From the NCBI GenBank assembly GCA_018816385.1, contig JAHIVK010000041.1, forward strand, positions 1 to 46,440: a stretch of 46,440 nucleotides of DNA. The letters run 5' to 3'. This DNA comes from Patescibacteria group bacterium. GTDB taxonomy: Bacteria > Patescibacteriota > Microgenomatia > UBA1400 > PJMF01. Positions within the stretch are counted from its first letter, which is position 1; every line of letters begins with the position of its first letter. The notes below the pieces were generated by a model. The model was given only the letters and a program-made list of their open reading frames with translations. It did no database searches and was not told the origin of the DNA. The translations under genes and the position numbers were made by a program. Below, piece after piece: positions 7,952 to 39,540 of this stretch.

Positions 7952-7963
7952 GGTTGGGGTTTA

Positions 7964-10712: not shown

Positions 10713-10749
10713 CTTGAGTCGATTATATCAGGGCTAAGATGGAGTGAGA

Positions 10750-11335: not shown

Positions 11336-11395
11336 TAGACTTGTAGTGAAATAAGATTCGTAAGTAGCCGTTGTGCTTATTTTGCTACAAGTCTA
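11336..11395. repeat. Inverted pair of cassette cores between the SpoIID-like stop and the higB-like start
   Basis: TAGACTTGTAGTGAAATAAG (11336-11355) against CTTATTTTGCTACAAGTCTA (11376-11395): a 20-bp inverted repeat with 2 mismatches and a 20-nt spacer containing GTAAGTAGCC (compare the window-edge sequence ATAAGTAGCC). Confidence 0.8.
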
Positions 11396-13390: not shown

Positions 13391-14623
13391 ATGAAGTTAT
13401 TTTCACAAATATTAAGCGGATTACTTATATCAATGGTGGTTTTTACTGGAACTGGTCAATTTAATTTGGCAAAAGCTACAGGCAAGTGTGATGTAGAAGA
13501 ATTTATTGGTGAAACAAGTTTACCAAATGAAGTTCTGCTTGGAACTGAGATATCGATGAATTTTAAAGTTACTTTAAAAAATAACGTCCTGGCGAATAAC
13601 GCCCAATACACTGTTAAAATTGAAAAAGGTTCCGGTAATTTCGACCCGGTTGGTACTGCTGTAGCATCGGGTGGTTCAATAACGTTTACTGGAGAATATA
13701 AGTTTACAGATGAGAAAGAAAAGTTTTATTTAATCATTTCTGGACCGGGTTTGGAAAATTTTTTGTCTTTGACTAATGGATGCTCAATTCACGAGTTTCG
13801 CCAAGTAAGTGGGCTTAAAAATCTTAGTTACAAAAATATATATATCAAACAAACAAGAGATGGTAAAACCTGTTACGGAGGATTTGGAACTGCTAGCAAC
13901 AGTTGCCTGGAAACTGGTAGTCCTTTTGAAGTAATTATTCAAGGTTTATTATATGGACGATCAATTTGGGCGAACCAAAAGGTCTGGGTCGGATTAGATA
14001 CAGGGCTAGGTACGTCTTCGCTATTAACAACTGATAGCAGTGGTAATCTTGATCCAATATCATATCATTCAAATAAAGTTGGATCTCATACTTTATATGT
14101 TGAATACCCCAGTGGTGCATTTCAAACAGGATTAGGAACCAGCAACTTTTTTTATAAAAAACAATTTTATTTAAGCTCTAATTGTAATCCAGATCAGTGC
14201 GATCAAACAGAACCTACCTACACTGGTTCGGACAATATAGCTAGCGTGCCATATAAAATTTGTGACCAAATTGATCAAAACAAATTCAAAGAATTATATG
14301 ATAATTGTATCACTTGTGTTGGTGATGACGAGGAAGGTCGAGAAGGTGTCTGGACCGCGATTGGTTGTATTAAAAAAGACCCCATCCAAATAGTTCAAAA
14401 TCTAATTAGAATTGGTTTGGGTATGGGGGGAGGTGTGGCCCTACTGATGATTCTGGCCTCTGGATTTATTTTTTCCATTTCTCAAGGTGACCCCAAAAAA
14501 GTCGGCGATGCTAAAGAAATGGTCGTCGCGGCCGTGACAGGCTTGTTGTTTGTGATTTTTTCTGTCACCATTCTGGAGTTTATTGGTTACTCGGTCTTTC
14601 GCATACCAGGGTTTGGAGGGTAA
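13391..14623 (+). CDS. Secreted protein with a C-terminal T4SS pilin-like (VirB2/TrbC-like) two-helix module (paralogue 1)
   Basis: It has a signal peptide. The C-terminus reads GGGVALLMILASGFIFSISQGDPKKVGDAKEMVVAAVTGLLFVIFSV: hydrophobic helix, short basic loop, hydrophobic helix, as in paralogues 2-11. Confidence 0.6.
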   Translation: MKLFSQILSGLLISMVVFTGTGQFNLAKATGKCDVEEFIGETSLPNEVLLGTEISMNFKVTLKNNVLANNAQYTVKIEKGSGNFDPVGTAVASGGSITFTGEYKFTDEKEKFYLIISGPGLENFLSLTNGCSIHEFRQVSGLKNLSYKNIYIKQTRDGKTCYGGFGTASNSCLETGSPFEVIIQGLLYGRSIWANQKVWVGLDTGLGTSSLLTTDSSGNLDPISYHSNKVGSHTLYVEYPSGAFQTGLGTSNFFYKKQFYLSSNCNPDQCDQTEPTYTGSDNIASVPYKICDQIDQNKFKELYDNCITCVGDDEEGREGVWTAIGCIKKDPIQIVQNLIRIGLGMGGGVALLMILASGFIFSISQGDPKKVGDAKEMVVAAVTGLLFVIFSVTILEFIGYSVFRIPGFGG

Positions 14624-14635
14624 AAAAATAACAAA

Positions 14636-15670
14636 ATGAAAAAATTAATCAAGATATTCAAGCAGTTAACAATAGGTGGAATGTTCGCACTTGCGCTTTG
14701 TTTGGGATTTGTAACTCAAGTTAAGGCAGTAGATTGCGCCAAAATATACGACAGATGGAACACTCTATTTTTTTGTGATCTCAATAACAACCAAGCATCA
14801 GATCAAGGAGAAAAGCCCTATACCATCTGTGCTACAAATCAGATTGGTCAACCGTGTTGTGCCGGAACTAGTGATTTAGCAGTATCAGCTTGTGCGCAGA
14901 TAATTTCTCCACCACTTTGCGGAGTCACCCGTTATTCAAGTGTCATAATAGGACACTACTGTGATACAAACCTAAATTCTAAACTCGATGTCTTTGACAA
15001 CACAAGAAATGAGGGTATATTTACCGACTGTGTTGGATCACCCTCTCGTCGAGAGAGTCACCCATGTTGCATTGGTCCTGATGCCATAGCAAAATGTACT
15101 CAGGCTCTATCTCCCACTGCGATTCCCGCTACGATTCCTACTCCCATAACCTTGGCTTGCGGTAATACATTTCCACAAGCTCAAATAGCATCAACTACTT
15201 GTACTTGCCCCCATCCAATTAAAGCAATGGAAGAAAATGATTTATATTGTTGCGGATGGATTGATCCCAGTGATAAAACAAAGTGCCTAAAAACTAACCC
15301 TGGCGGAATTGAGCATCCTTTTGATGCGCCTTCTAGCGAAACTTTTGATTCTCTGAATCCCTTGTGGATTGGCGGAGGAGATTCAATCCAAGATGCAACT
15401 GGCGCCACGTCTCCATACGCCAGCGACCTTTCCACCCCAGGGGGCATCATTTCTCGCTTACTTGACTTTATCTTCCCCATCGCCGGCTTAATCTTATTTG
15501 TCATGCTGGTTTGGGGTGGCTTTGAAATGTTGATTGGAGCTCCCACCAAGAAATCAATTGAAGCTGGCAAAAATCGCATCACTGCCGCCATCATTGGCTT
15601 CCTATTGCTGTTTGCCTCATACTGGTTAATGCAAATTGTGGAAGTAGTATTTGGTATAGTGGTTTTATAA
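14636..15670 (+). CDS. Secreted Cys-rich protein with a C-terminal pilin-like module (paralogue 2)
   Basis: Signal peptide ending VKA. Many Cys residues. The C-terminus is LILFVMLVWGGFEMLIGAPTKKSIEAGKNRITAAIIGFLLLFASYW. Confidence 0.6.
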   Translation: MKKLIKIFKQLTIGGMFALALCLGFVTQVKAVDCAKIYDRWNTLFFCDLNNNQASDQGEKPYTICATNQIGQPCCAGTSDLAVSACAQIISPPLCGVTRYSSVIIGHYCDTNLNSKLDVFDNTRNEGIFTDCVGSPSRRESHPCCIGPDAIAKCTQALSPTAIPATIPTPITLACGNTFPQAQIASTTCTCPHPIKAMEENDLYCCGWIDPSDKTKCLKTNPGGIEHPFDAPSSETFDSLNPLWIGGGDSIQDATGATSPYASDLSTPGGIISRLLDFIFPIAGLILFVMLVWGGFEMLIGAPTKKSIEAGKNRITAAIIGFLLLFASYWLMQIVEVVFGIVVL

Positions 15671-15694
15671 TAGACTTACTGCGAAAATAGACTT

Positions 15695-16060
15695 ATGTTT
15701 AACCTCATTTCTCAAGCGCAAGCCCAAGTTGCCAGTCAAGGTGGTTGTAATCCTGGCGAAGGTGGTCTTAATCTAGGAGACTGTCTCCAGTTGAGTGATA
15801 GCACTCACGTCAGTAGCAAATACAGTTCTTTAAGCTTTCTGGTAAATTTAGTGGTGCGTAATGTTTTTGTCATTGCTGGTATTGGATTGTTTATCATGTT
15901 TTTTGTAGCCGGTTTCCAGTTTATTGCTAAAGGCAAACAAGGCATTGAAGATGCCAAGCAAACAGCCACGGCGGCTGTCTTGGGTTTTGTGATTATGTTT
16001 TGCGCCTACTGGATAGTGCAGCTTGTGAAATATATCACTGACACCAATATTTTGCTTTAA
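15695..16060 (+). CDS. T4SS pilin-like protein (paralogue 3)
   Basis: 121 aa with FIMFFVAGFQFIAKGKQGIEDAKQTATAAVLGFVIMFCAYW. A short cassette (TAGACTTACTGCGAAAATAGACTT-ATG) lies upstream. Confidence 0.65.
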   Translation: MFNLISQAQAQVASQGGCNPGEGGLNLGDCLQLSDSTHVSSKYSSLSFLVNLVVRNVFVIAGIGLFIMFFVAGFQFIAKGKQGIEDAKQTATAAVLGFVIMFCAYWIVQLVKYITDTNILL

Positions 16061-16067
16061 AAAAATT

Positions 16068-16448
16068 ATGCTAACTCCATCCACCCTCCTCGCTCAAGCT
16101 CCTCAACTGGAAGACGTGGTGGGCATGATTGACACTCCACCCGGCATCGACAAGCAAATTACTGCCGCCGGTATAGGACCCGGAGATAACGCATTGTTAT
16201 TTTTTATTTCTAATCTCTTACGAATTGCCACTATTCTGGTCGGAGTCTGGGTATTGTTTAATGTCCTGCTGGCGGGCTACGATTTTATTTCTTCACAAGG
16301 TAAATCAGACGCATATCAAAAAGTGCGTGATAAATTGACAATGAGTGTGATTGGCTTACTGTTGATCACAGTGGCTTACACCATTGGTGGCTTGATCGGA
16401 TTAATTTTGTTTGGGGATGCCGGCTATCTACTTAATCCGCAGTTTTAG
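16068..16448 (+). CDS. T4SS pilin-like protein (paralogue 4)
   Basis: 126 aa with VWVLFNVLLAGYDFISSQGKSDAYQKVRDKLTMSVIGLLLITVAY. Confidence 0.65.
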   Translation: MLTPSTLLAQAPQLEDVVGMIDTPPGIDKQITAAGIGPGDNALLFFISNLLRIATILVGVWVLFNVLLAGYDFISSQGKSDAYQKVRDKLTMSVIGLLLITVAYTIGGLIGLILFGDAGYLLNPQF

Positions 16449-16501
16449 ATAAATAGACTTATAGCGAAATAAGAAACGAAATCAGAAAGCTCGAGCAAGC
16501 A

Positions 16502-17164
16502 ATGAAACAACATCGTCATAAATTTAACTTTCATTATCATCTTTGCAAGTTCATCATGGGCGTGGGAGTTGGAAGCTTATTTCTGATTGTTGGTTTAACT
16601 GGATTGGGAACGTTCAATATCTCTTTTGTTTCTGATGTACGGGCAGTGGCCTGTACTCCGCCTCAATGCGGGACAGATGGTTGTTATGATAAGTGCGGAG
16701 GTGGCTGTACTTATCAGGGTCAATGCATTAGTAATCGCTTGTGTCAAGTTTCCACCGTTGGGAAAGAAAGGTGGTTGGTGCTTTCAGTAGCAGGATGTGG
16801 TTCAACCGTGGTGGGCAAAATCAAGATGCCCGATGGGGTAGCGGACTATAACGCTCAAGCCGCCCTAGGCGGAGGTAGAATCGGCGTTATCCTGTTTGCC
16901 TCTCGCCTGCTTAACATCTTAACCATTATTGCCGGCCTGTGGGTGATGGCCAACTTTATGATAGGTGGTTTTGAGTTTGTGGTGGGTGCTGGCAACGCCG
17001 AAACCATGGGCAAAGTTAAAGAAAAAATTATGTTTAGCTTAGTGGGCATTATTTTGATCGTGGCCGCCTACAGCGTGGCCGGCGTCATTGGCCTCATCTT
17101 CTTTGGCGATGCCGGCTTTATCTTGAAACCCGACATCAGTCAATATGGAGCCTTGGCGCCTTAA
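16502..17164 (+). CDS. T4SS pilin-like protein with an N-terminal Cys-rich module (paralogue 5)
   Basis: CTPPQCGTDGCYDKCGGGCTYQGQC is followed by LWVMANFMIGGFEFVVGAGNAETMGKVKEKIMFSLVGIILIVAAY. A partial cassette lies at 16454-16480. Confidence 0.65.
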   Translation: MKQHRHKFNFHYHLCKFIMGVGVGSLFLIVGLTGLGTFNISFVSDVRAVACTPPQCGTDGCYDKCGGGCTYQGQCISNRLCQVSTVGKERWLVLSVAGCGSTVVGKIKMPDGVADYNAQAALGGGRIGVILFASRLLNILTIIAGLWVMANFMIGGFEFVVGAGNAETMGKVKEKIMFSLVGIILIVAAYSVAGVIGLIFFGDAGFILKPDISQYGALAP

Positions 17165-17328
17165 AAAATAGGTATCAATGTGAGGTATATTAAACTTAAA
17201 TCAACGCTTCCCTTATTTTGCCACAGGTCTAATGCAAATTTGAACGGCGCAAGTTCTATAAAACTTAGGTATAATTAAATAGAGTGGTGATAAAATAGAC
17301 TTGTCGCGAAATAAGAAACGAGTTAATT

Positions 17329-17709
17329 ATGCCTCAGACAACCCTCCAGCTAGCTCAATTTGGCGATCAAGGTCTCATGCCACCAGTGGTTAACGATTAC
17401 ACCAGGGGTGTAGCTGAAGGTGAAACAGCTTTTTCCAGTTTGGAGTTAATTATTTCCAACGTGATTGGCCTGCTCACCACCATTGGTGCCATCATGTTCA
17501 TCCTCTACTTTATCTTGGGAGCCATTAGTTGGATCGGCTCTGGTGGCGATAAGGGCAAGCTAGAGTCTGCCCGCAATCAGATGATGCATGGAGCGCTGGG
17601 CTTGATCATTATTGTGAGCGCTTATGCCATCATTGGCTTGATTGGCCGAGTGGTAGGATTGGATATCTTGAGTCTGGCCGATCAGCTAAAAAAGTTAACA
17701 CCTAACTGA
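17329..17709 (+). CDS. T4SS pilin-like protein (paralogue 6)
   Basis: FILYFILGAISWIGSGGDKGKLESARNQMMHGALGLIIIVSAY. The ATG is supplied by a full cassette at 17296-17331. Confidence 0.7.
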   Translation: MPQTTLQLAQFGDQGLMPPVVNDYTRGVAEGETAFSSLELIISNVIGLLTTIGAIMFILYFILGAISWIGSGGDKGKLESARNQMMHGALGLIIIVSAYAIIGLIGRVVGLDILSLADQLKKLTPN

Positions 17710-17801
17710 ATTGGATCTTATAAATAAACAAGGCAAATATAGATTGGTGGCAAAATAAAAAAATAGCCGATTAGATCTGTCGAAAAATAAGAAACGAGTT
17801 C

Positions 17802-18353
17802 ATGATGAATAAATTTAAGAGCGCTTTAGTTAATTTTGATCACAATAGCCAAAGATTTTCTTTTTCAATTAGTCAAGTTAGTACGAAGGTGCCATTTCTT
17901 AAATTGTTACTCACGATCGTGGTTGGATCTGCTTTTTTACTCAACACTGCCTTTTCCAATCCTGTTCGGGCCGATATTATCAATCCGGCCGTTGGCACCT
18001 TGGGTGGCTGTCAGCCTGGTGACGGTGAGTGTGTGGAAAATCCAGTGGCCATTGACCAAGTTAAGTCCGGCGCCACTTTTCTGTTGCAGTTTGTTAAACT
18101 CTGGCGCAACACCATCAACCTGGGCGCCATCATGGTCCTGCTTTACTTTATTTGGGGAGCGGTGGAGTGGATTAGCTCTGGAGGTGACAAAAATAAGCTG
18201 GAGAGTGCTCGCAACAAGATGTTGCATGCAGTCTTGGGGCTGATTATCCTGGTGAGCTCGTTTGTGATCATTGGTTTTATTAGCGGTGGTCTGTTTGCCA
18301 AAAATTTTGATATATTAAATCTGCAGTTTTTTACCCCGGGAGAGGGCTCATAG
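17802..18353 (+). CDS. T4SS pilin-like protein (paralogue 7)
   Basis: VLLYFIWGAVEWISSGGDKNKLESARNKMLHAVLGLIILVSSF. It has a signal anchor. The cassette lies at 17772-17804. Confidence 0.7.
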   Translation: MMNKFKSALVNFDHNSQRFSFSISQVSTKVPFLKLLLTIVVGSAFLLNTAFSNPVRADIINPAVGTLGGCQPGDGECVENPVAIDQVKSGATFLLQFVKLWRNTINLGAIMVLLYFIWGAVEWISSGGDKNKLESARNKMLHAVLGLIILVSSFVIIGFISGGLFAKNFDILNLQFFTPGEGS

Positions 18354-18455
18354 AATTTGGCAGTGAAAAACAAAATATCAGACATAAAATCAAATCAGAT
18401 AAACTGATAGCTAGTTATAAAGAGACCTGTAGCGAAATTAAGAAACGAGTTAATT

Positions 18456-18968
18456 ATGCCTCAAACTTTACTGCTCGCCTCTACTCAACTGGCCGAGGCC
18501 CTGCCTTTTAACATTGGAGAAAAGGCCCAGGACATTATTCCCATGATCGGGGCCAGCAACTCCGGCGATGACTCGTACCGTTCCAACTTTTCATATCTTG
18601 TCACCAGTCTGATGAGCTTCATCATGGCCATCGCCGCTCTGGCCGTCCTGTTGTTTTTGCTGTTTGGAGCCATCGAATGGATTAGTTCCGGCGGCGATAA
18701 AAACAAACTGGAGTCCGCCCGCAACAAGATGATGCACGCGGCTTTAGGAATTATTATTCTCTCGGCTACCACCGCTATCTTTATGGTCATCCAACAGTTT
18801 GTGGGCATTAGAGTGATTAATTTTGTTGGAGGAAGCGCGCCAAATTACTCTTATGCTTGCATGGATGTACATGCTTGTGGAATCATAAATGGTAATGTGG
18901 TAGTTGATAATAACGGCACTTGTCGGGGCGGATGTGCTCATTCTAATATCTGTTGTCAATCTAATTAG
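18456..18968 (+). CDS. T4SS pilin-like protein with a C-terminal Cys-rich extension (paralogue 8)
   Basis: LLFLLFGAIEWISSGGDKNKLESARNKMMHAALGIIILSATT, then ...YACMDVHACG...GTCRGGCAHSNICCQSN. The cassette lies at 18421-18458. Confidence 0.7.
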   Translation: MPQTLLLASTQLAEALPFNIGEKAQDIIPMIGASNSGDDSYRSNFSYLVTSLMSFIMAIAALAVLLFLLFGAIEWISSGGDKNKLESARNKMMHAALGIIILSATTAIFMVIQQFVGIRVINFVGGSAPNYSYACMDVHACGIINGNVVVDNNGTCRGGCAHSNICCQSN

Positions 18969-18989
18969 TAGTCATTAAAAAATCCGAGC

Positions 18990-19019
18990 TTGACTATTGA
19001 GAAATCTACCCTATATAAT
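18990..19019 (+). promoter_or_regulatory. Near-consensus sigma70-type promoter upstream of pilin paralogue 9
   Basis: TTGACT (18990-18995) and TATAAT (19014-19019) are 18 nt apart; the alternative -10 TATATA is 16 nt away. AAGGA lies 9 nt before the ATG at 19080. Confidence 0.5.
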
Positions 19020-19079
19020 GAAATTATCTAATCGCTACTTAAAAAAGTCTGGTACTAACATAAAAAAGGATATATATAT

Positions 19080-19517
19080 ATGAAACAGACACTGCAAAAA
19101 TACGGGTTGACGGCCGTTGTCACCCTAGCCGGCTTGGCTTCAAGCGCGGGAGCCGTCTTTGCCCAAGCTGGTGGCAATACGGGTATTAATATCGGTACCA
19201 CTACACTAGCTAAAGGCTTTGCCGGTGATTTGGGCTCAATCATTACTGGGGCGCTGGGCTTCATCATGGCCATTGCCGCTCTGTTGGTTTTTCTCTACCT
19301 GATTTTGGGAGGCATCCAGTGGATTACCTCCGGTGGAGACAAAGGCAAGACGGAAGAGGCTCGCAACAAGATCACGTCAGCGGTGATTGGTTTAATTGTG
19401 CTGGCCGCGGCCTACGCTGTCCTGCAAATTATGTTGGGATTCCTTGGCTTAACTTCTATCACTGATGCTTTCAAGAATATTAAAGTGATTGATAGTACAA
19501 GAGATGGACCTGTCTAA
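19080..19517 (+). CDS. T4SS pilin-like protein (paralogue 9), candidate major pilin
   Basis: Signal peptide ending VFAQA|GG. LVFLYLILGGIQWITSGGDKGKTEEARNKITSAVIGLIVLAAAY. It has its own promoter-like site and is followed by a strong intrinsic terminator. Confidence 0.7.
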   Translation: MKQTLQKYGLTAVVTLAGLASSAGAVFAQAGGNTGINIGTTTLAKGFAGDLGSIITGALGFIMAIAALLVFLYLILGGIQWITSGGDKGKTEEARNKITSAVIGLIVLAAAYAVLQIMLGFLGLTSITDAFKNIKVIDSTRDGPV

Positions 19518-19538
19518 TTGGGGTTTTTTGGTGAAGTT

Positions 19539-19574
19539 TAAACCCCCTGCCTTTTGGTAGGGGGTTTTTGATTT
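19539..19574 (+). terminator. Rho-independent terminator after pilin paralogue 9
   Basis: AAACCCCCTGCC-TTTT-GGTAGGGGGTTT forms a 12-bp stem (one G-U pair) with a 4-nt loop, running into TTTTTGATTTT. Confidence 0.8.
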
Positions 19575-19783
19575 TAACACGAGGTTTTGCACTGCTTGAT
19601 TATTCCTGACTTCGCCAATTACGTTACCCAACAGCCTGAAAACATTTAGCGAAAGTTAATACCTGACTTTCGTACTTAACCCAGATCAGGCTTATCACTG
19701 GTTCTCTTATTTTGGGACAGGTCTACCAAACCAACTCACTGCGAGTTCGTGTTTCCCATCAGAATAAGGTATAATCAACCATT

Positions 19784-20302
19784 ATGACAATTAAAAAAAA
19801 TCTGGCTGTCTTTTCCCTAATCTTTGGGTTGGCGTTGGGTCTTTTTTTTGGAGCCTCGCCCGCTCTAGCCAGTGGTTTAAAAACTAGCACTGACTCAACC
19901 TCAGGTCAAGTTGAAACCACCACTCAAGACGAGGCCACTTTTCTCACTACCAACATTGCCAATCAGGGAGTAGCTGAAACTCTCTTCACTTTGCCAGTGG
20001 GTTTTGCCAGAAACCTAGGCATCTGGATCACTGGTGTGGCAAGTTTATTGATTGCCATCATTGTGTTACTGGTTTTCTTCCAGCTGATCATGGGCGGCTT
20101 CTCCTGGATAACTTCAGGCGGAGATAAGGGCAAAACTGATGAAGCCAGAAACAGATTGGTGGCGGCCATTATTGGTCTATTAATCATCGCCGCTTCATAT
20201 GCAGTGTTAGTTGTGCTACTTAGATTCATAGGTTTTGAATCAGTCAGCGATGCTTTTAATAACATTCGACCCATCAGCTCTAATCCTAGTGTCCTCAGAT
20301 AA
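19784..20302 (+). CDS. T4SS pilin-like protein (paralogue 10)
   Basis: Signal peptide ending ALA|SG. VFFQLIMGGFSWITSGGDKGKTDEARNRLVAAIIGLLIIAASY. A TATAAT at 19770-19775 ends 8 nt before the ATG. Confidence 0.7.
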   Translation: MTIKKNLAVFSLIFGLALGLFFGASPALASGLKTSTDSTSGQVETTTQDEATFLTTNIANQGVAETLFTLPVGFARNLGIWITGVASLLIAIIVLLVFFQLIMGGFSWITSGGDKGKTDEARNRLVAAIIGLLIIAASYAVLVVLLRFIGFESVSDAFNNIRPISSNPSVLR

Positions 20303-20310
20303 TCAAAGCT

Positions 20311-20724
20311 ATGTTTAGCCTCAAACTGTTCAAGCTAACTTGCAAAACTCTTAGCACTTCCGCTATAGCCTTATTGTTGAGCGCCTCGCCCATCTATGCT
20401 CAACAAAGAGCTTGGACAGGAGTCTGCGTCGGAAGCGCTGATAGCGATGTGGCCACGATTCAGGGCCTGGAGTGTTTGATTGCCAATGTCTTTACAGTCA
20501 TCATCACTCTAATTGGCGTAGCGGCCTTTGTCATGTTTGTAGTTGGATCTCTAACCTGGTTAACTGCTGGTGGCAATTCCAACAACATGGAAAAGGCCAA
20601 AAAATCTTTTACTTACGCCGTGGTGGGCATCGTGGTGGCTTTAAGCGCTTTTATTATCATCAATTTGATTGCCTCTTTTACCGGCGTCAACATTATTCGC
20701 AACTTCTCCATTCCCACTTCTTAA
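20311..20724 (+). CDS. T4SS pilin-like protein (paralogue 11)
   Basis: Signal peptide ending IYAQQ. FVMFVVGSLTWLTAGGNSNNMEKAKKSFTYAVVGIVVALSAF. Confidence 0.65.
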   Translation: MFSLKLFKLTCKTLSTSAIALLLSASPIYAQQRAWTGVCVGSADSDVATIQGLECLIANVFTVIITLIGVAAFVMFVVGSLTWLTAGGNSNNMEKAKKSFTYAVVGIVVALSAFIIINLIASFTGVNIIRNFSIPTS

Positions 20725-20865: not shown

Positions 20866-23800
20866 ATGGCAAATGTGAAACGCAGTTTAATCGTCTTGAT
20901 TATTTTGTTTTTTCTTGGCCAGGCAGTCAAGCCTGTTCGGGCCTATGGAATCGCTGAACTCAAGGCTGATCTTGATTTTTTGGGCACAGTCTCCATTGGC
21001 AAACTGCTCTTCGTTCCCTTTGGCTCAAACCCTGACCCTAATTTCGTCAAACACCGACTTGATGACCAACAAATTGATTATTTGTGTGATGGTGATTGCA
21101 CCAGCAAGAACATTGGGGCGAATTTTGGTACCTTCTACAAAAATGGGAAATATGAAAAAGCTCGAAACCACAAAATGAACTGGACACTGGAAATTGCCCA
21201 AGCAGGCAGCGCTCAAGCCATTGCTGACGTCATTAACAGTGAGGGCATTAATAACGTTGTCATACGTATCGGCGTAAGTGGCAGTAGTTTTGGTTTTGAC
21301 GATCCCAATACTTATGCCGCCTTTTTGGCAGACATTGCCAGCAAAGTGGGAGGGAAAACTTTTTATGCCATTGCTGGACCTAACGAACCCGATATCGAAA
21401 CCTGGGCCACTCCTGGATGCTCTCCAGCCAATGGTAGCGACAGCCCCAATGCCAGAGCAGCTTTTTATGAATGCGCTGGCCCTCAATTGGCCGATTACAT
21501 GAACGCCGTTATTGCTTACAAACCCAATGGCGTCAAGTTGCTCTCCCCCGCTTTTAATCTGACAAGCTTCATGTTTAACGATGATACTGGCCAACCGGAC
21601 GGTCTTCCCCTGGCGATGTTGCGCCACGGAGCCAATTTCACCGGACTCGATGCCATTGCTGGGAATATTTATCCCAACGGCGACAGCATGCAGAATATTT
21701 GGAACAGCCACGTAGCCCCCATAATTTCCAAGCTTGGGAAGCCCGTAGTCATTACAGAGACTGGTCCTTGGGGAGTTATTAATCAACCCTTCGAGGGTTA
21801 CGATACCTCACAGTATGATTCATACAATGTTGACGACGATGAGTTTTACATCCAACCTATCAAGGGTATTATCCCAAGTTCTACCGATCCCACGACGCGA
21901 GAGCTGTGGGGAGTAGGTGGCAGCAGACAAACTAGCGTAATCAGAGACGATTTGATTAAACAAGGTTATGAAGCACACTGTGCTACACCAGGTTTCAAAA
22001 TTGTTTTTGAAAAAATTGGCCAACAATGGATGGATACATTTCTGAAATTACCCAACACCCCAATTGGGGTTGCTTATGGAGCTTCTATTTTATACCCGAG
22101 CAATGCCGATTGGCTGGTGGAAGGAACTCCTTTTCGCTCTACTTTAACCGTTGATTATCAAGAACTTTTAACTCCTTTATTTAGAGATGTCTCAGATAAA
22201 AAATTTCTCATGACGTCACTGGAAGAATTTTTTGGGTACAAAGATCAAGCCGAAAATCCCAGTGATGCAGAAATTAACTCAAGTGCGATTAACTCTCTAC
22301 TTACCAACCAACAGCGTTGCATTTTATCGGTGAATATGCTGCTTAAAGAAAAAGAAATGTGCCAAAAATTGGTTAATCCTAACAGTTGCGCTCTTTACCC
22401 CAGGCCTGTTACTAATACCGACTGGACGGTAAAACAAACACTGGATAATTACCAAACATTTGTTAATCAGCATCAAAGCGATTTGATTCAAGAGAAGCTG
22501 AGCGGACAGGCAGATGATCCAGACACCATTCGGTATGTATGTCGGGAACTGGTGGCCAGTAATCAGCCCTATGTCGACGAGGAATTAAAATCAGCCCTTT
22601 TACAAGTACCTCTCACCTTAGACCGAAGTTACAGACTGGCTTTTTTGGTCACAACTATTGAAATGAAATATACCAAAGGTACTAAAAGTATTTTTAATTT
22701 ATATGAGCATCCTAACGCCGGATTCTTCTCTGGGGGTCCAAGCAAACCCAAGCATGGCATTTTGGTAACCGCTTTTAAAGTTCCAGATATTACTACTAAT
22801 CAAGGAAGTGGTGGAAATGGCAATACAGCTTGGCTTGACGCGGCCAGCCTAACTAGAAATTCTCTTTTAACCAAAGAACAAATTGAAAAAGTTAATGAAA
22901 ATGACGCTGATCGAACGGAAGAAATGCTGCAAGAAGCTAAAAAATATGATGTAGATAGTCAAACCTCAAGCGACGAGATCTTTTGTATTGTTGGTCAAGC
23001 CGCCGGCGGCGTTGGTGCCCCCGAATGCCACGACCCACTTAGTAAGGCTTTAACAGATATCGTTAATACTCAGGCCAATATTAGCAAGAGTGGAAGTTCG
23101 GACTACAACCTGTTTGAAACCGAGTGTCCTGAGTTAGATAGAGAGTCTAACGACACCATTAGTGACCTAGGATCTTTTGGGGACACTAGTTTAGATAGCA
23201 AACTTTATACCACCGAATTTGGTGCTGATTTGCTTAATCAGTTATTTATTGACTCAACGCATCTGCTCAACAAAGATGAGAGCAAACCAAATACGCAATT
23301 TGCGGAAACTTGGAGAGAAGGCGATCCAGAATATGAAGATCATAATCCTTGGGGAGGATTAAATGACTGGGGATTAAAGAATATCTTTTATGTCGTTCCC
23401 AAAATGAAAGAAGCCGGCTGGCCATATAGTGACTGTTGTGATCCAGTAGAGGTTAAGCATTTTCTTGTTTATCCAGAGGGATACACCTTAAAAACTATTG
23501 AGGAAACTTTGGCCGGAAGCTTCTTTAGTCAAGACCAGCTTGCCAGCCTACAAACTAAGTCTGAAGAATATGATCGTTTTGATAGTCACGGCTCCCAAGT
23601 AACATTTGAAGGAGCAACTTTTAATAAGAACTTTGATGATTATTCAAATGAACCACCCAATACGCCGGTTGAGGGTCAACCGGAGTGCGCACATGAAAGA
23701 ACAATTGGCTATGATAAACTTGGCAATCCAATTACGGAAACTTACTATGCCCTGCCTTGTAGAAGGAGTTTTGGTTTCCAGATTGTGCAATGGGGCAAAA

Positions 23801-24324
23801 ACTTGCAACCAGGGTTTTTGGGTGCTAAATTAGGTTTTTGGGTTAGGACCATTCAACAGCAACTTAGCAGTAGCACTAGCTCTGCCTGGAAATATTTGGA
23901 TAGCTGCGAAACAACCGAGCAATTTTTGCTTGGCAAGTGTGGAAATGCCGCGCCAGAAGTTGAACAACAAGACAGTGATAGCTGCACTGATTTAAGCTGC
24001 GCGGTTCCGGCTGAGCCAGAGCCTGAAGTCACACCATCCGCTTCTCAATCTGGAAGTTGTCTCGAAATTTGGGTTGATAATGGGATTGTTTTTGCCAAAA
24101 ATAAATGTGCTTGCTCATTTGGTGACTGGCAACTTCAAGACGCTGGGGGCGGACTTTGGTGCGGTCCACTGGGAGCTAATAATACCCTTTTTCCTTTTGA
24201 AACGAAGGGTGGTTTCTGCAGCAACACAGCGCCACCCAATCCGGTTTGCGGTTTAATTTTTGCACCCGGTGCTGACCCAGGCAATTGTTTAACGGCCAAC
24301 GAAAGAGTTTGTGTTAGCTGGTAA
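20866..24324 (+). CDS. Large secreted protein with an N-terminal clan GH-A (TIM-barrel) glycoside-hydrolase-like signature and a Cys-rich C-terminus
   Basis: Signal peptide MANVKRSLIVLIILFFLGQAVKPVRA. AIAGPNEPDIE is an NEP acid/base-like motif and KPVVITETGPWG is a TETG nucleophile-like motif, about 125 aa apart. The C-terminal ~100 aa are Cys-rich. The true start may be the in-frame GTG at 20875. Confidence 0.55.
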   Translation: MANVKRSLIVLIILFFLGQAVKPVRAYGIAELKADLDFLGTVSIGKLLFVPFGSNPDPNFVKHRLDDQQIDYLCDGDCTSKNIGANFGTFYKNGKYEKARNHKMNWTLEIAQAGSAQAIADVINSEGINNVVIRIGVSGSSFGFDDPNTYAAFLADIASKVGGKTFYAIAGPNEPDIETWATPGCSPANGSDSPNARAAFYECAGPQLADYMNAVIAYKPNGVKLLSPAFNLTSFMFNDDTGQPDGLPLAMLRHGANFTGLDAIAGNIYPNGDSMQNIWNSHVAPIISKLGKPVVITETGPWGVINQPFEGYDTSQYDSYNVDDDEFYIQPIKGIIPSSTDPTTRELWGVGGSRQTSVIRDDLIKQGYEAHCATPGFKIVFEKIGQQWMDTFLKLPNTPIGVAYGASILYPSNADWLVEGTPFRSTLTVDYQELLTPLFRDVSDKKFLMTSLEEFFGYKDQAENPSDAEINSSAINSLLTNQQRCILSVNMLLKEKEMCQKLVNPNSCALYPRPVTNTDWTVKQTLDNYQTFVNQHQSDLIQEKLSGQADDPDTIRYVCRELVASNQPYVDEELKSALLQVPLTLDRSYRLAFLVTTIEMKYTKGTKSIFNLYEHPNAGFFSGGPSKPKHGILVTAFKVPDITTNQGSGGNGNTAWLDAASLTRNSLLTKEQIEKVNENDADRTEEMLQEAKKYDVDSQTSSDEIFCIVGQAAGGVGAPECHDPLSKALTDIVNTQANISKSGSSDYNLFETECPELDRESNDTISDLGSFGDTSLDSKLYTTEFGADLLNQLFIDSTHLLNKDESKPNTQFAETWREGDPEYEDHNPWGGLNDWGLKNIFYVVPKMKEAGWPYSDCCDPVEVKHFLVYPEGYTLKTIEETLAGSFFSQDQLASLQTKSEEYDRFDSHGSQVTFEGATFNKNFDDYSNEPPNTPVEGQPECAHERTIGYDKLGNPITETYYALPCRRSFGFQIVQWGKNLQPGFLGAKLGFWVRTIQQQLSSSTSSAWKYLDSCETTEQFLLGKCGNAAPEVEQQDSDSCTDLSCAVPAEPEPEVTPSASQSGSCLEIWVDNGIVFAKNKCACSFGDWQLQDAGGGLWCGPLGANNTLFPFETKGGFCSNTAPPNPVCGLIFAPGADPGNCLTANERVCVSW

Positions 24325-38136: not shown

Positions 38137-38400
38137 ATTAAATTCCTGTGTGTTTTAAATGCATCAAACTTCTTGAGAAATAATGGAAACGATAAAATGG
38201 CAATTGTCCTAGGATGACATAAGTTTAAGTTTTTATTTCGAAAGAAGTTTGATGCATTTCATAGACAAACGCTTTCCACAGTGTTTAAATAATTGACGAT
38301 TTGGTCTGTCGATCAGGTAATAAAATCTGCTAGAATGAGTTTGTCATTAAGCTTGCAGTAAAGTTCAACAGCTTTGCTGTGGATTATATGTAGACTGCCC

Positions 38401-39540
38401 ATGAGAGAACATCCCATTCCCCAAGACATCACTGGTTACCGCTTCCATATTGTGGGTAATATGACCCTCAAGCAATTTGCTGAGGTCGGCGCGGGTTGTA
38501 TCGTGGCCATTATCTTATATAAGACTGGACTACCGGATTTCATCAAGTGGCCAATGGTGGTTTTTTCCTTTGGTTTAGGAGCACTGGCAGCTTTTGTACC
38601 CATCGAAGAAAGACCAATTGACCATTGGATTGCAACGTTCATCAGCATTATGTATAAACCTACTCAGTATTTTTGGAAAAGAATACCATTTATTCCCTCA
38701 GCTTTTGCTTATCAAACCGAAACTGTAACTCAACCACTGCCCGCCGAAGTTGACCTGTCTCCAGCGCGTCGCCATCGGGTCAAAGAGTTTATGGCTTCAA
38801 TTCAAGCCGTTGGTTTCAATCGATACGACCTTGACCAATCAGAAAAAGCCCAAATTGGCGCCATATTAAATTTATTTGGTCAAACCCAAGTGGTTGTTAA
38901 CCAGACTAAACCCAAGGTGGTGAAACCTCAGCTTGACGTCAGAGTCCGAAAACTGGGCAAGCTTGATCGATCGCGCCATAGTTCGGACAAAATGTTTGAG
39001 GCCGCCATCATTATGGATCAATCCGACAAAAAGCGCCAAGCCAAACCCAAAAAAGCCGGCATGACCACTAGCCAAATTGCCAAGCAAATTACCATCCCAA
39101 TCACCCCCAATCTTGATATTGAAGCCGAACCGATCAGTGATGAAGAGCTAGCCATCTCTCATCGTCAAGCGGATGATGGAGACAGAGCTTACATTCAAAA
39201 TCAACCTCAAGATCAACTTGATACCAATCAAGCCAAGTCGGCTCTTTTCAATGCCAGCCTACCATTTCCCACCGCCCCCACCGAACCCAACAAATTGGTT
39301 GGCATGGTGCTGACTCCTCGCAACGAATTAATTCCTGGAGCGATTATTGAAGTTAAAACTTTAGATGGCCATACGACTCGAGCAGTTAAATCAAACGCCT
39401 TGGGCCAATTCTACGTGACCACCCCATTGAAAAATGGTCAATACGTAGTGGAAATTGAAAAAGATGGCTTTAAATTTGAACCGCAGAAACTTGAAGTGGC
39501 GGGTAAAAATCTTCAACCAATGGAGGTGAGAAGTGTTTAA
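38401..39540 (+). CDS. PrgI-family (VirB3-like) membrane protein fused to a C-terminal carboxypeptidase-regulatory-like beta-sandwich
   Basis: MREHPIPQDITGYRFHIVGNMTLKQFAEVGAGCIVAIILY plus a second TM fits the PrgI pattern. The C-terminus is GMVLTPRNELIPGAIIEVKTLDGHTTRAVKSNALGQFYVTTPLKNGQYVVEIEKDGF. I prefer ATG 38401 over the upstream TTG 38374. Confidence 0.65.
   Translation: MREHPIPQDITGYRFHIVGNMTLKQFAEVGAGCIVAIILYKTGLPDFIKWPMVVFSFGLGALAAFVPIEERPIDHWIATFISIMYKPTQYFWKRIPFIPSAFAYQTETVTQPLPAEVDLSPARRHRVKEFMASIQAVGFNRYDLDQSEKAQIGAILNLFGQTQVVVNQTKPKVVKPQLDVRVRKLGKLDRSRHSSDKMFEAAIIMDQSDKKRQAKPKKAGMTTSQIAKQITIPITPNLDIEAEPISDEELAISHRQADDGDRAYIQNQPQDQLDTNQAKSALFNASLPFPTAPTEPNKLVGMVLTPRNELIPGAIIEVKTLDGHTTRAVKSNALGQFYVTTPLKNGQYVVEIEKDGFKFEPQKLEVAGKNLQPMEVRSV

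What the first reader, a model, noticed from the sequence alone, without database searches (positions are those of the whole stretch)
13391..20724. Array of eleven tandem VirB2/TrbC-like pilin paralogues, several fused to Cys-rich modules
Eleven consecutive plus-strand genes all end in, or consist of, the same module: a hydrophobic helix, a short basic loop, then a second hydrophobic helix. A graded consensus is visible in the sequences:
- SWIGSGGDKGKLESARNQMMHGALGLIIIV;
- EWISSGGDKNKLESARNKM(L/M)HA;
- QWITSGGDKGKTEEARNKITSAVIGLIVL;
- SWITSGGDKGKTDEARNRLVAAIIGLLII;
- more diverged: FQFIAKGKQGIEDAKQTATAAVLGF, FEMLIGAPTKKSIEAGKNRITAAIIGF and IFSISQGDPKKVGDAKEMVVAAVTG.

This is the layout of conjugative-pilus subunits and of the CPR T4SS-pilin family.

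Unusual points:
- There are eleven copies in one locus.
- The first two are 410- and 344-aa secreted fusions (adhesin- or tip-like).
- Paralogue 5 has an N-terminal Cys-rich module and paralogue 8 a C-terminal one.
- The closest paralogues (7 and 8) differ mostly at synonymous sites in the conserved loop, which points to purifying selection rather than recent gene conversion.
- Paralogues 3, 4, 6 and 8 start just before an AQA-like motif (MFNLISQAQAQV, MLTPSTLLAQAPQ, MPQTTLQLAQF) and lack the hydrophobic core of a signal peptide. The others have one, and at 6 and 8 the ATG comes from the leader cassette.
Basis: partly seen in the sequence, partly recalled or inferred. Interest (0 to 1): 0.75.

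Follow-up and report, generated by a model that had tools for sequence, protein, structure and literature searches.

The report
Conserved eleven-gene T4SS pilin array

Summary
Observation confirmed. Eleven consecutive plus-strand ORFs (13391-20724) all carry a helix / basic-loop / helix module. All eleven hit Pfam PF18895 (T4SS_pilin): four above the curated cut-off, seven just below.

The array sits upstream of SLT_3 and M23 hydrolases, a PrgI/VirB3-like gene, a VirB4-like ATPase and dnaA/dnaN. This is the chromosomal, origin-proximal T4SS locus described for Patescibacteria.

The kind is already published. Wang 2023 reported an essential pilin series. Quiñonero-Coronel 2025 reported 441 arrays of 2-11 pilin genes, mean identity 25% and maximum 54%. 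This array measures 25.6% and 54%.

What I add:
- Synonymous sites are near saturation between the six paralogue pairs tested.
- The paralogues have collinear 1:1 orthologues in two other species, and the same order recurs in 17 metagenome loci.
- The six paralogues (p6-p11) covered by other strain assemblies are almost invariant among strains. This argues for a fixed set of specialised subunits, not variation cassettes.
- Only p9 has its own promoter-like site and terminator, so it is the candidate major subunit.
- p1 is a signal peptide, two Ig-like domains and the pilin hairpin.
- Four paralogues truly lack a signal peptide.
- The 'leader cassette' is a genome-wide dispersed repeat.

Filament formation is untested.

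The parts
13391..14623 (+). p1, 410 aa: signal peptide, two Ig-like beta-sandwich domains, a small Cys-rich knob with the WTAIGCI motif, then the pilin hairpin and an invariant C-terminal PGFGG
   Evidence: PF18895 E 1.5e-4, 22.2 bits. AF2 model pLDDT 82.5. Foldseek hits to Ig/FN3/MG-type sandwiches, E 1e-6 to 1e-4. 197 homologues of about 400 aa; invariant residues from alignment A2.
14636..15670 (+). p2, 344 aa: signal peptide, Cys-rich ectodomain (19 Cys), Pro/Thr-rich linker, pilin hairpin
   Evidence: PF18895 37.0 bits, above cut-off. Cys positions. The ectodomain varies in length and sequence among orthologues while the linker and hairpin are conserved.
15695..16060 (+). p3, 121 aa: no signal peptide; conserved two-Cys motif CNPGEGGLNLGDC (possible disulfide loop) before the hairpin
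   Evidence: PF18895 25.9 bits. In-frame TAG directly upstream. Orthologues a3 and b3 have a signal peptide.
16068..16448 (+). p4, 126 aa: no signal peptide; hairpin
   Evidence: PF18895 23.5 bits. Hydropathy. 41% identical to the p5 module.
16502..17164 (+). p5, 220 aa: signal peptide or anchor, N-terminal Cys-rich module (8 Cys in residues 51-99), hairpin
   Evidence: PF18895 24.9 bits. Cys positions. Module motif C..C.GGC.Y.G.C..N..C conserved in a5 and b5.
17329..17709 (+). p6, 126 aa: no signal peptide (also absent in both orthologues); hairpin
   Evidence: PF18895 34.2 bits; TrbC 15.1 bits, E 0.026. Orthologue N-termini.
17802..18353 (+). p7, 183 aa: signal peptide, hairpin
   Evidence: PF18895 26.2 bits. 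Hydropathy.
18456..18968 (+). p8, 170 aa: no signal peptide; hairpin followed by a C-terminal Cys-rich module (6 Cys in residues 135-167)
   Evidence: PF18895 21.2 bits. Cys positions. A C-terminal Cys module is also present in a8 and b8.
19080..19517 (+). p9, 145 aa: signal peptide plus hairpin; candidate major subunit
   Evidence: PF18895 35.2 bits. 1109 homologues; all 120 listed carry PF18895. AF2 hairpin. NF045849 E 6e-8. Bracketed by intergenic spacers in most related arrays.
18990..19019 (+). Promoter-like site TTGACT-18-TATAAT upstream of p9
   Evidence: 11 of 12 consensus matches. Equivalent TTGACA-17-TACAAT upstream of the L008 orthologue, and a 120-nt spacer holding TG-extended -10-like elements in L007 (read by eye).
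19540..19567 (+). Intrinsic-terminator-like hairpin with T-tract just after p9
   Evidence: 12-bp stem. dG -22.6 kcal/mol, z -4.8.
19784..20302 (+). p10, 172 aa: signal peptide, Ser/Thr-rich spacer, hairpin
   Evidence: PF18895 25.7 bits. 54% identical to the p9 module.
20311..20724 (+). p11, 137 aa: signal peptide, conserved Cys pair flanking VATIQGLE, hairpin
   Evidence: PF18895 42.4 bits. Most conserved orthologue pair, 59-65%.
17212..17333 (+). p6 upstream region: inverted copy of the 20-nt dispersed repeat, an AGGTATAAT -10-like box (17267-17275), then a forward copy of the repeat with an SD-like AGAAACGAG and the ATG
19706..19775 (+). p10 upstream region: inverted copy of the 20-nt repeat and an AGGTATAAT -10-like box (19767-19775)
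20866..24324 (+). 1152-aa secreted protein with no Pfam match, found just downstream of the array in several relatives
   Evidence: No Pfam hit. N-terminal hydrophobic segment. 48-51% identical homologues directly after the arrays in L007 and L008. tblastn matches downstream of the array in 7 metagenome loci.
24792..26654 (+). SLT_3 lysozyme-like protein (VirB1-type function)
   Evidence: PF18896 39.8 bits.
28113..29876 (+). 587-aa protein with an N-terminal hydrophobic segment plus six further hydrophobic segments (the count depends on the threshold); VirB6/PrgH-like candidate (inferred only)
   Evidence: Hydropathy. No Pfam family.
32513..37117 (+). 1534-aa protein with a C-terminal M23 peptidase domain
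   Evidence: PF01551 41.8 bits.
38374..39540 (+). PrgI (VirB3-like) protein with a CarboxypepD_reg-like domain
   Evidence: PF12666 31.3 bits, above cut-off; PF13620 32.1 bits, just below its 32.3-bit cut-off.
40999..43053 (+). VirB4-like T4SS ATPase, immediately upstream of dnaA (43218-44720) and dnaN (45155-46264)
   Evidence: PF19044 76.2 bits; CagE_TrbE_VirB 25.1 bits; DnaA and DnaN domains.

Best explanation
The region is the pilin array of the chromosomal, origin-proximal, monoderm-type (MPF-FATA-related) type IV secretion system of a Patescibacterium. The lineage is probably Microgenomatia-like, and near-identical strains occur in Äspö deep groundwater.

**Shown.**
- Each of the eleven genes ends in a PF18895 VirB2-like module: two long hydrophobic helices joined by a short loop with 3-4 Lys/Arg.
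- The eleven are ancient, mutually divergent paralogues.
- They have collinear 1:1 orthologues in other species.
- p6-p11, the six covered by other strain assemblies, are almost invariant among strains.

**Inferred.**
- The proteins insert in the membrane with the ectodomain and C-terminus outside and the basic loop in the cytoplasm, as VirB2/TraA do.
- Seven insert by way of a cleavable signal peptide. Four (p3, p4, p6, p8) insert by translocation of a short acidic N-tail.
- The VirB4-driven machine extracts them and assembles a surface filament or conduit. This structure is needed for the epibiotic lifestyle.
- p9 is the only gene with its own promoter-like site, SD-like sequence and terminator. 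It is set apart by spacers in most related arrays. It would therefore be the abundant major subunit.
- The other ten would be low-copy specialised subunits. Their ectodomains (two Ig-like domains in p1, Cys-rich modules in p2, p5 and p8, conserved Cys-pair motifs in p3 and p11) would provide the tip, adhesion or base functions.
For: **Family.**
- PF18895 hits all 11 proteins, 4 above cut-off.
- 77 of 77 members of the p9-family alignment hit PF18895, and 15 of 77 also hit TrbC/VirB2 (best E 2.8e-8).
- Weak hits to NF045849, a Mycoplasma ICE pilin-like family: p9 E 6e-8, and p6, p7, p8 and p11 as well.

**Fold.**
- AF2 gives hairpins for p9 and p1.
- The top Foldseek PDB hit for p9 is the Aeropyrum pernix conjugation pilus 8dfu: probability 0.91, TM 0.67, rmsd 3.0 Å.

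**Topology.** Loops hold 3-4 K/R in all 11. The 30 residues before helix 1 are net acidic in 9 of 11.

**Context.** SLT_3, M23, PrgI, VirB4, dnaA and dnaN follow on the same strand.

**Age.** pS is 0.64-0.80 between the six paralogue pairs tested.

**Orthology.**
- The BLASTP matrices are strictly diagonal against L007 (12 genes) and L008 (11 genes).
- The same 1→11 order holds in 17 metagenome loci.

**Strain invariance.** p6-p11 are 99.5-100% nt identical in four to five other assemblies.

**p9 expression signals.**. Median upstream gap is 82 nt and downstream gap 76 nt. Other junctions have a median of 17 nt or less, apart from the large insert between p2 and p3.

**Literature.**
- The pilin series is essential in Southlakia epibionticum (PMC10633639; review PMC12857230).
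- Arrays of 2-11 pilin genes, mean identity 25% and maximum 54%, with the T4SS near dnaA (PMC12102498).
- This array measures 25.6% mean and 54% maximum.
Against: - No pilus built by a T4SS has been seen in any Patescibacterium. Filament formation is an inference by homology.
- No window protein reaches the TrbC/VirB2 cut-off.
- A profile of the p9 family finds no solved structure by sequence.
- The Foldseek match to a conjugation pilus has E 1.5. Helical hairpins match many unrelated folds.
- Seven of the eleven proteins are below Pfam's gathering score.
- The promoter scan as a whole is not enriched (19 sites found, 17.8 expected). The p9 promoter call therefore rests on its near-consensus sequence and on conservation of the spacer.
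- p3 and p11 are as conserved across species as p9, so conservation alone does not single out p9.
- No VirD4-type coupling protein or relaxase was recognised in the window, so the transported substrate is unknown.
Confidence: 0.75

Rival explanations
1. Variation cassettes. The paralogues are interchangeable major pilins, expressed alternately or selected for diversity so the cell can adapt to different host strains or evade host defences. This is what is proposed for VirB2 paralogues of Bartonella and Anaplasma, and PMC12102498 suggests it for Patescibacteria.
For: - Within-array identity is low, 15-54%.
- The ectodomains differ among paralogues.
- Separate transcription signals are suggested upstream of p1, p6, p9 and p10.
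- The idea is stated in PMC12102498.
Against: - Each paralogue is closer to its positional orthologue in other species than to any neighbour, and the order is conserved in 17 further loci.
- Synonymous sites are near saturation between the six pairs tested, so there is no recent amplification or conversion.
- p6-p11 are 99.5-100% identical among strains, while the nearby SLT_3 gene differs by about 7.6% in three of the four.
- Paralogue-specific modules are conserved.
Confidence: 0.1
2. Membrane-resident components, not a filament. The two-helix module serves as a membrane anchor, or as part of the T4SS channel itself. It would display the ectodomains (Ig-like, Cys-rich) on the cell surface without polymerising.
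For: - Gram-positive T4SSs generally lack pili (PMC10633639; PMC12102498).
- p1, p2, p5 and p8 carry sizeable ectodomains that look like surface proteins.
- The structural match to pilins is not statistically significant.
Against: - Five paralogues (p3, p4, p6, p9, p11) are little more than the hairpin, which leaves nothing to display.
- Sequence links run to TrbC/VirB2, CagC and a pilin-like ICE protein family.
- The loop is strongly conserved (WI[ST]SGGDK.K.E.ARN). In solved conjugative pili the corresponding loop faces the lumen (from established knowledge, not tested here).
Confidence: 0.13
3. Chance resemblance. These are unrelated small two-TM proteins (holin-, immunity- or transporter-like) that merely share hydrophobic composition.
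For: Weak sub-threshold hits to many unrelated membrane families, such as MatE, Cyt_bd_oxida_II, TctB and DUF996.
Against: - PF18895 hits all 11 and is the top hit for 10; it is the only family above its cut-off.
- The non-hydrophobic loop motif is conserved.
- Synteny with VirB4 and PrgI is fixed.
Confidence: 0.02

Closest known systems
VirB2-like pilin arrays of Patescibacterial T4SSs (Quiñonero-Coronel et al. 2025, PMC12102498; essential pilin series of Southlakia epibionticum ML1, Wang et al. 2023, PMC10633639; 'Sec-secreted array' of TM7x)
   Same: - Tandem PF18895 genes next to a chromosomal T4SS (VirB4, PrgI/VirB3, hydrolases) near dnaA.
- No relaxase or coupling protein recognised.
- Within-array identity 25.6% mean and 54% maximum here, against 25% and 54% published.
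- Arrays are reported to be abundant in Microgenomatia.
   Different: - Eleven genes is the top of the published range (2-11). My more sensitive HMM finds 12 in relatives L007, L015, L018 and L083.
- The main text of the 2025 paper, searched by term, does not mention three things shown here: collinear 1:1 orthology of the paralogues across species, the loss of signal peptides in some paralogues, or the separate transcription signals around one paralogue.
TrbC/VirB2/TraA conjugative pilins of diderm T4SSs (Pfam PF04956; T-pilus, F-pilus, RP4)
   Same: - Small proteins with two hydrophobic helices and a short basic loop, often with a cleavable leader.
- Encoded with a VirB4 ATPase.
- 15 of 77 members of the p9-family alignment cross-match PF04956.
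   Different: - No window protein reaches the PF04956 cut-off.
- The host is a monoderm.
- There are eleven paralogues instead of one.
- Several carry large ectodomains.
- Four have no leader.
- No VirB5 or VirB7-10 homologues were recognised.
Mbov_0395 family pilin-like conjugal transfer protein of Mycoplasma ICEs (NCBIfam NF045849)
   Same: A two-helix protein of about 80 residues from a monoderm conjugative element. p9 matches over 75 of 80 profile positions (E 6e-8). p6, p7, p8 and p11 match weakly.
   Different: - All scores are below the curated cut-off (32.3 against 40 bits).
- In ICEs the gene is single-copy and belongs to a DNA-transfer system with a relaxase.
Amplified VirB2 paralogues of Bartonella and Anaplasma phagocytophilum T4SSs
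   Same: Several tandem virB2-like genes beside one T4SS.
   Different: Those are thought to serve antigenic or host-range variation. Here the paralogues are ancient, positionally orthologous across species and (for p6-p11) invariant among strains.
Archaeal conjugation (Ced/Ted) pili, e.g. Aeropyrum pernix CedA1 pilus, PDB 8dfu
   Same: Best structural match of the p9 hairpin: probability 0.91, TM 0.67, rmsd 3.0 Å over 74 columns.
   Different: E-value 1.5 and 16% identity. The resemblance is in fold only and is not statistically supported.

Membership tests
Pfam PF18895 T4SS_pilin | HMM score at or above the gathering score (26.6 bits) | tested here: met
   Met by p2 37.0, p6 34.2, p9 35.2 and p11 42.4 bits.
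Pfam PF18895 T4SS_pilin | HMM score at or above the gathering score, for the other seven paralogues | tested here: inconclusive
   - p1 22.2, p3 25.9, p4 23.5, p5 24.9, p7 26.2, p8 21.2, p10 25.7 bits. All have E of 3e-4 or better; PF18895 is the top hit except for p8, where DUF996 scores 21.5 bits.
- All seven align with the four that pass.
- Many p1 homologues carry a precomputed PF18895 hit.
Pfam PF18895 T4SS_pilin | Two hydrophobic helices joined by a short polar or basic loop | tested here: met
   Hydropathy for all 11. AF2 for p9 and p1.
Patescibacterial VirB2 array (PMC12102498) | Two or more pilin genes in tandem, or separated by one gene | tested here: met
   Eleven in tandem. Gaps range from 7 to 266 nt.
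Patescibacterial VirB2 array (PMC12102498) | Linked to virB4 and other MPF-FATA-type T4SS genes, often near dnaA | tested here: met
   VirB4-like gene at 40999-43053, PrgI at 38374-39540, dnaA at 43218. virB4 lies about 20 kb downstream of the array on the same strand.
Patescibacterial VirB2 array (PMC12102498) | High divergence within the array (mean about 25%, maximum about 54%) | tested here: met
   Mean 25.6%, range 15-54% over the module.
TrbC/VirB2 pilin (Pfam PF04956) | HMM score at or above the gathering score (27.9 bits) | tested here: not met
   Only p6 matches, at 15.1 bits and E 0.026. Indirect link: 15 of 77 members of the p9-family alignment match, best E 2.8e-8.
TrbC/VirB2 pilin (Pfam PF04956) | Structural similarity to solved conjugative pilins | tested here: inconclusive
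   The top Foldseek hit is a conjugation pilus (8dfu) but E is 1.5. A sequence profile against the PDB finds nothing.
TrbC/VirB2 pilin (Pfam PF04956) | Leader cleavage (and, in some, cyclisation), then polymerisation into a lipid-containing pilus | not testable with these tools
   A signal-peptide-like N-terminus is present in 7 of 11 by hydropathy. Processing and assembly need experiments.
NCBIfam NF045849 Mbov_0395 pilin-like conjugal transfer protein | Score at or above the curated cut-off (40 bits) | tested here: not met
   p9 32.3 bits (E 6e-8); p6, p7, p8 and p11 16-21 bits.
Antigenic or host-range variation arrays (Bartonella/Anaplasma-type VirB2 amplification) | Recent amplification, and variation among strains or lineages | tested here: not met
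   pS 0.64-0.80 between the six pairs tested. 1:1 collinear orthologues. p6-p11 are 99.5-100% identical among strains.

The most novel reading that the evidence does not exclude
The eleven paralogues are obligate, non-interchangeable parts of one heteromeric VirB2-type filament or conduit in a monoderm. p9 would be the bulk subunit. The other ten would be fixed-position minor subunits (tip, adhesin, base), comparable to the minor-pilin complexes of type IV pili. The conserved gene order 1→11 would reflect that architecture. The family would have been inherited with the monoderm FATA-type T4SS (the link to Mycoplasma ICE pilin-like proteins) and not borrowed from diderm systems.
Probability: 0.3. 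Interest if true: 0.7.

Novelty: new member of a known kind. Interest (0 to 1): 0.3.

Why it matters
The T4SS and its pilin series are essential for the one genetically tractable Patescibacterium, yet nobody knows what the machine does or whether it builds a pilus. This locus adds no new kind of system.

The comparative result does sharpen the question. The paralogues form an ancient, ordered, non-redundant set, and one is set apart for separate expression. That argues against the published 'variation for host adaptation' idea.

It also gives concrete predictions:
- p9 is the major subunit.
- p1 and p2 are surface-exposed adhesin-like subunits.
- Subunits without a leader are still inserted in the membrane.

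These can be tested by transcriptomics, proteomics, cryo-ET or multimer modelling.

Tried and rejected
- **tRNA and Rfam scans** of the window found nothing.
- **Sequence profile of the p9 family against the PDB** gave no meaningful hit.
- **Foldseek of p9.** Only non-significant matches (E 1.5 or worse), so the fold cannot prove VirB2 homology.
- **Pfam at E up to 1 on the unassigned neighbours** (1152, 348, 587, 856, 315, 476 and 108 aa) gave nothing usable.
- **NCBIfam** gave no above-cut-off name for any pilin.
- **Organism name.** The genome contigs record titles call the two related MAGs 'uncultured Pseudomonadales'. I treat this as a placeholder or mislabel, because homologues elsewhere are named Woesebacteria, Pacebacteria, Microgenomates or Patescibacteria. 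The exact class of the window's organism was not established.
- **Leader cassette as an RNA structure.** I saw no consistent pairing among the copies by eye. The p6 upstream region folds no better than shuffles (z -1.3).
- **Leader cassette as a sigma-70 promoter.** By my own reading of the sequence, the spacing of the candidate hexamers does not fit.
- **The 1.7-5.5 kb insert** that separates p2 from p3 in most related arrays is not matched by the 1152-aa protein in any locus where that protein was found. There its homologue maps downstream of the array.
- **Gene conversion among paralogues.** Rejected, because synonymous differences are near saturation even inside the identical loop.
- **General promoter and terminator scan.** Not enriched over shuffles. 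Only the sites supported by conservation were used.

Full report
**1. The observation**

The window holds eleven consecutive plus-strand ORFs at exactly the reported coordinates: p1 410 aa, p2 344, p3 121, p4 126, p5 220, p6 126, p7 183, p8 170, p9 145, p10 172 and p11 137 aa. Their C-terminal parts, each about 80 residues, align as hydrophobic helix, short loop, hydrophobic helix (alignment A1).

Pfam PF18895 (T4SS_pilin) hits all eleven.
- Above the 26.6-bit gathering score: p2 37.0, p6 34.2, p9 35.2, p11 42.4.
- Below it: the other seven, at 21.2-26.2 bits and E of 3e-4 or better. PF18895 is the top hit for all of them except p8, where DUF996 scores 21.5 bits against 21.2.

An HMM built from the eleven modules finds no further copy among window ORFs of 60 aa or more. 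The array is real and far beyond chance.

**2.

*Signal peptides.* Kyte-Doolittle profiles show an N-terminal hydrophobic core in p1, p2, p5, p7, p9, p10 and, more weakly, p11. This is a hydropathy heuristic, not a signal-peptide predictor. In p3, p4 and p6 the first hydrophobic stretch is helix 1 itself, and p8 has only a weak one. These four ORFs cannot be extended, because the ORF listing starts each ORF at the first start codon after a stop. For p3 the in-frame TAG lies 24 nt upstream.

*Cys-rich modules.* p5 has 8 Cys in residues 51-99, and p8 has 6 Cys in residues 135-167. p2 (19 Cys) and p1 (10 Cys) are Cys-rich as well.

*The p7/p8 loop.* EWISSGGDKNKLESARNKM is identical in both proteins, and 10 of its 19 codons differ, all synonymously. 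Across the six paralogue pairs tested, pS is 0.64-0.80 (near saturation) and pN is 0.31-0.40. The duplications are therefore old and there is no recent gene conversion.

*One correction.* The closest pairs over the module are p9/p10 (54%) and p6/p7 (52%). p7/p8 share 46%.

**3. Genomic context**

Downstream on the same strand lie:
- a 1152-aa secreted protein with no Pfam match;
- an SLT_3 lysozyme-like protein;
- a 587-aa protein with an N-terminal hydrophobic segment and six further hydrophobic segments (a VirB6-like candidate, inferred only);
- a 1534-aa protein with an M23 peptidase domain;
- a PrgI/VirB3-like protein;
- a VirB4-like ATPase;
- then dnaA and dnaN.

No coupling protein or relaxase was recognised.

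The contig is ENA ERZ27247128 k141_792002. Near-identical sequences occur in GCA_043826185.1, GCA_043825415.1, SRR6514274 and two Äspö deep-groundwater metagenomes. Homologues are named Patescibacteria group, Woesebacteria, Pacebacteria or Microgenomates.

**4. What is already known**

- Wang et al. [quoted passage not shown]
- Quiñonero-Coronel et al. 2025 (PMC12102498) screened 3,035 Patescibacteria genomes with PF18895 and PF04956. They found 441 arrays of 2-11 pilin genes, especially in Microgenomatia and Saccharimonadia. Mean within-array identity was 25% and the maximum 54%. The T4SS often lay near dnaA/dnaN and usually lacked a relaxase.
- A 2025 review (PMC12857230) discusses the possibility of a pilus in these monoderms.

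The present array has mean identity 25.6% and maximum 54%. It is a typical member at the top of the published size range.

**5. New comparative results**

*Two other species.* A genome-collection scan anchored on the 1152-aa neighbour found two species whose anchor protein is 48-51% identical (L007, L008). They carry 12 and 11 pilin-module genes. All-against-all BLASTP is strictly diagonal: every window paralogue has one best, collinear orthologue in each species. The only change is an extra p9-like copy in L007.

*Paralogue-specific features are conserved*:
- the N-terminal Cys module of p5;
- the C-terminal Cys module of p8;
- the conserved Cys-pair motifs (possible disulfide loops) of p3 and p11;
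- the linker of p2.

*Metagenome loci.* A metagenome scan anchored on the p1 family returned 80 loci. Fifteen of them hold 8-12 modules. In all seventeen loci with seven or more modules, including two cut by contig ends, the order is 1-2-3-4-5-6-7-(8/9)-9-10-11. Other loci hold only the p1+p2 pair.

*Strains.* Among strains of the window's own species, p6-p11 are 99.5-100% identical in nucleotide sequence. The few differences are mostly synonymous.

Together these results argue against recent amplification and against variation cassettes. They favour eleven specialised, non-redundant proteins.

**6. Expression architecture**

Most junctions inside the array are short. Several longer spacers carry signals.
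- Upstream of p9 there is a near-consensus TTGACT-18-TATAAT at 18990-19019. By my reading of the sequence, an AAGGA (SD-like) follows it.
- Downstream of p9 there is a 12-bp-stem hairpin with a T-tract (dG -22.6 kcal/mol, z -4.8).
- The p9 orthologues in L007 and L008 also follow spacers of 100-120 nt. These hold TTGACA-17-TACAAT (L008) or -10-like elements (L007) and SD-like sequences (read by eye).
- Across 14 related arrays, the junction before the p9-type gene has a median gap of 82 nt, and the junction after it (9 arrays) 76 nt. The other junctions have a median of 17 nt or less, apart from the large insert between p2 and p3.

I infer that p9 is transcribed separately and abundantly, which makes it the candidate major subunit. 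This is inference. The promoter scan as a whole is not enriched over shuffles.

**7. Structures**

*p1.* The model was built with 96 sequences and has pLDDT 82.5. It consists of:
- a signal-peptide helix;
- two beta-sandwich domains (about 47-139 and 149-262). Full-length Foldseek matches, about 220-270 aligned columns, are to Fab, EpoR/FN3 and complement MG-type sandwiches (E 1e-6 to 1e-4);
- a small Cys-rich element carrying the family-invariant WTAIGCI motif;
- the hairpin (331-363 and 368-402);
- an invariant C-terminal PGFGG.

About 200 homologues of around 400 aa exist.

*p9.* The model was built with 77 sequences. It is a signal-peptide helix, a disordered spacer, and a hairpin (45-82 and 88-121, mostly pLDDT above 90). 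Its best PDB match is the Aeropyrum pernix conjugation pilus 8dfu (probability 0.91, TM 0.67, rmsd 3.0 Å), but E is 1.5.

*Sequence links to classical pilins are indirect.*
- 15 of 77 members of the p9-family alignment hit TrbC/VirB2 (best E 2.8e-8), and 7 hit CagC.
- p9 hits the Mycoplasma ICE 'Mbov_0395 pilin-like conjugal transfer protein' model at E 6e-8, below its cut-off.

The last hit hints that such hairpin proteins exist in monoderm FATA-type systems. The 2025 paper left that point open.

**8. Topology and the leaderless paralogues**

Every loop holds 3-4 Lys/Arg. The 30 residues before helix 1 are net acidic in 9 of 11. This fits the VirB2/TraA membrane topology: termini out, loop in. 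That topology comes from established knowledge and was not tested here.

Signal-peptide presence varies among orthologues:
- p3 has one in L007 and L008 but not here.
- p4 and p8 have one in L007 only.
- p6 lacks one in all three species.
- The extra p9-like copy in L007 also lacks one.

The leaderless forms keep an AQA-like remnant. I infer that the leader is dispensable for this hairpin, and that the short acidic N-tail is translocated with helix 1 acting as a reverse signal-anchor.

**9. The 'leader cassette'**

The repeat upstream of p3, p5, p6, p7 and p8 is real. In p6, p7 and p8 it contains the ATG. It is not pilin-specific.
- Its 20-nt core, TAGACTTGTCGCGAAATAAG, occurs 10 times in the window in both orientations, against 0.05 expected.
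- Copies lie at the start of the MFS gene and at both contig ends.
- Two inverted pairs form strong hairpins at gene 3' ends: 11336-11395 (dG -20.7, z -6.7) and 3118-3185 (dG -24.2, z -6.3).
- Inverted copies lie upstream of the AGGTATAAT boxes of p6 and p10.
- It is absent from all other-species loci.

It is a species-specific dispersed element, either REP-like or operator-like. Its role is unresolved.

**10. Verdict**

The system is a member of a published kind. The useful additions are:
- the ancient, collinear, non-redundant nature of the paralogue set;
- the p9-specific expression signals;
- the domain structure of p1;
- the evolutionary lability of the signal peptide.

Filament formation, the transported substrate and the role of each paralogue remain untested.

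Noticed in passing
window 119-138, 1475-1519, 3118-3185, 11336-11395, 15671-15694, 16454-16489, 17212-17231, 17289-17333, 17772-17807, 18423-18458, 19706-19725, 46301-46330: A species-specific dispersed repeat with 20-nt core TAGACTTGTCGCGAAATAAG: 10 hits against 0.05 expected, in both orientations. Inverted pairs form strong hairpins at gene 3' ends (z -6.3 and -6.7). An extended 36-45-nt form supplies an SD-like AGAAAYGAG and the ATG of the MFS gene, of p6, p7 and p8, and of the ORF at the contig ends. It is absent from every related-species locus. REP-like or operator-like; function unresolved.
   Followed up: partly
window 1-138 and 46301-46438: The two ends of the contig are a perfect 138-nt inverted repeat. 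It includes a copy of the dispersed repeat and the start of a small ORF (MDRFYSIFVDS...). Given the k141 assembly, this may be an assembly-graph artefact or a true repeated gene flanking the region.
   Followed up: no
window 24792-26654: The SLT_3 lysozyme-like gene is only about 92.4% identical (with indels) in three of four other strain assemblies, while the pilin genes, the 1152-aa gene and the 348-aa gene are 99.5-100% identical. It looks like a local hot spot of divergence or recombination in the T4SS hydrolase. In two loci the gene is called as 698 aa, against 620 aa here.
   Followed up: partly
window 20866-24324: A 1152-aa secreted protein with no Pfam hit. 48-51% identical homologues follow the pilin arrays in L007 and L008, and tblastn matches lie downstream of the array in 7 metagenome loci. 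By eye it contains NEP and TETG motifs reminiscent of clan GH-A glycoside hydrolases. That reading was not tested.
   Followed up: partly
window 19080-19517 (also p6, p7, p8, p11): Sub-threshold but clear similarity (p9 E 6e-8, 75 of 80 profile positions) to NCBIfam NF045849, the Mbov_0395 pilin-like conjugal transfer protein of Mycoplasma ICEs. This suggests VirB2-like hairpin proteins also exist in monoderm FATA-type conjugation systems, which bears on the origin of the Patescibacterial pilins.
   Followed up: no
window 13391-14623; alignment A2: The p1 family (about 200 homologues of around 400 aa) has invariant Cys residues, an invariant WTAIGC motif just before helix 1, and an invariant extreme C-terminal PGFG(G). 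An invariant C-terminus suggests a processing, sorting or subunit-contact signal.
   Followed up: no
L011, L013, L019, L026, L034, L038, L042, L057, L062, L066, L070, L079, L083 (between the p2-like and p3-like genes): In 13 of 15 related arrays, 1.7-5.5 kb separate p2 from p3. In the window, L015 and L018 the two genes are adjacent. The content of this gap was not examined. It is not matched by the 1152-aa protein in any locus where that protein was found.
   Followed up: partly
window 5149-11061: A cluster of toxin-antitoxin and defence-type genes lies upstream of the array: AbiEii nucleotidyltransferase (5697-6416), a Fic/DOC protein with HTH (6462-7553, -), a PIN-domain protein (8913-9308, -), and an Xre-type HTH (10750-11061, -) next to a Gp49-like ORF called in L001. 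A RecF/SMC-like ATPase (9645-10712, -) is also there.
   Followed up: no
window 3187-5013 (-): An ATP-dependent DNA ligase with three domains (DNA_ligase_A_N, _M and _C, i.e. the ATP-dependent type) is encoded in this bacterial genome.
   Followed up: no
L007 7942-8292: The relative L007 has a lineage-specific extra copy of the p9-type pilin (116 aa). It has lost the signal peptide (N-terminus MKLLVTQAFAAD...). This is another independent case of leader loss in the family.
   Followed up: partly
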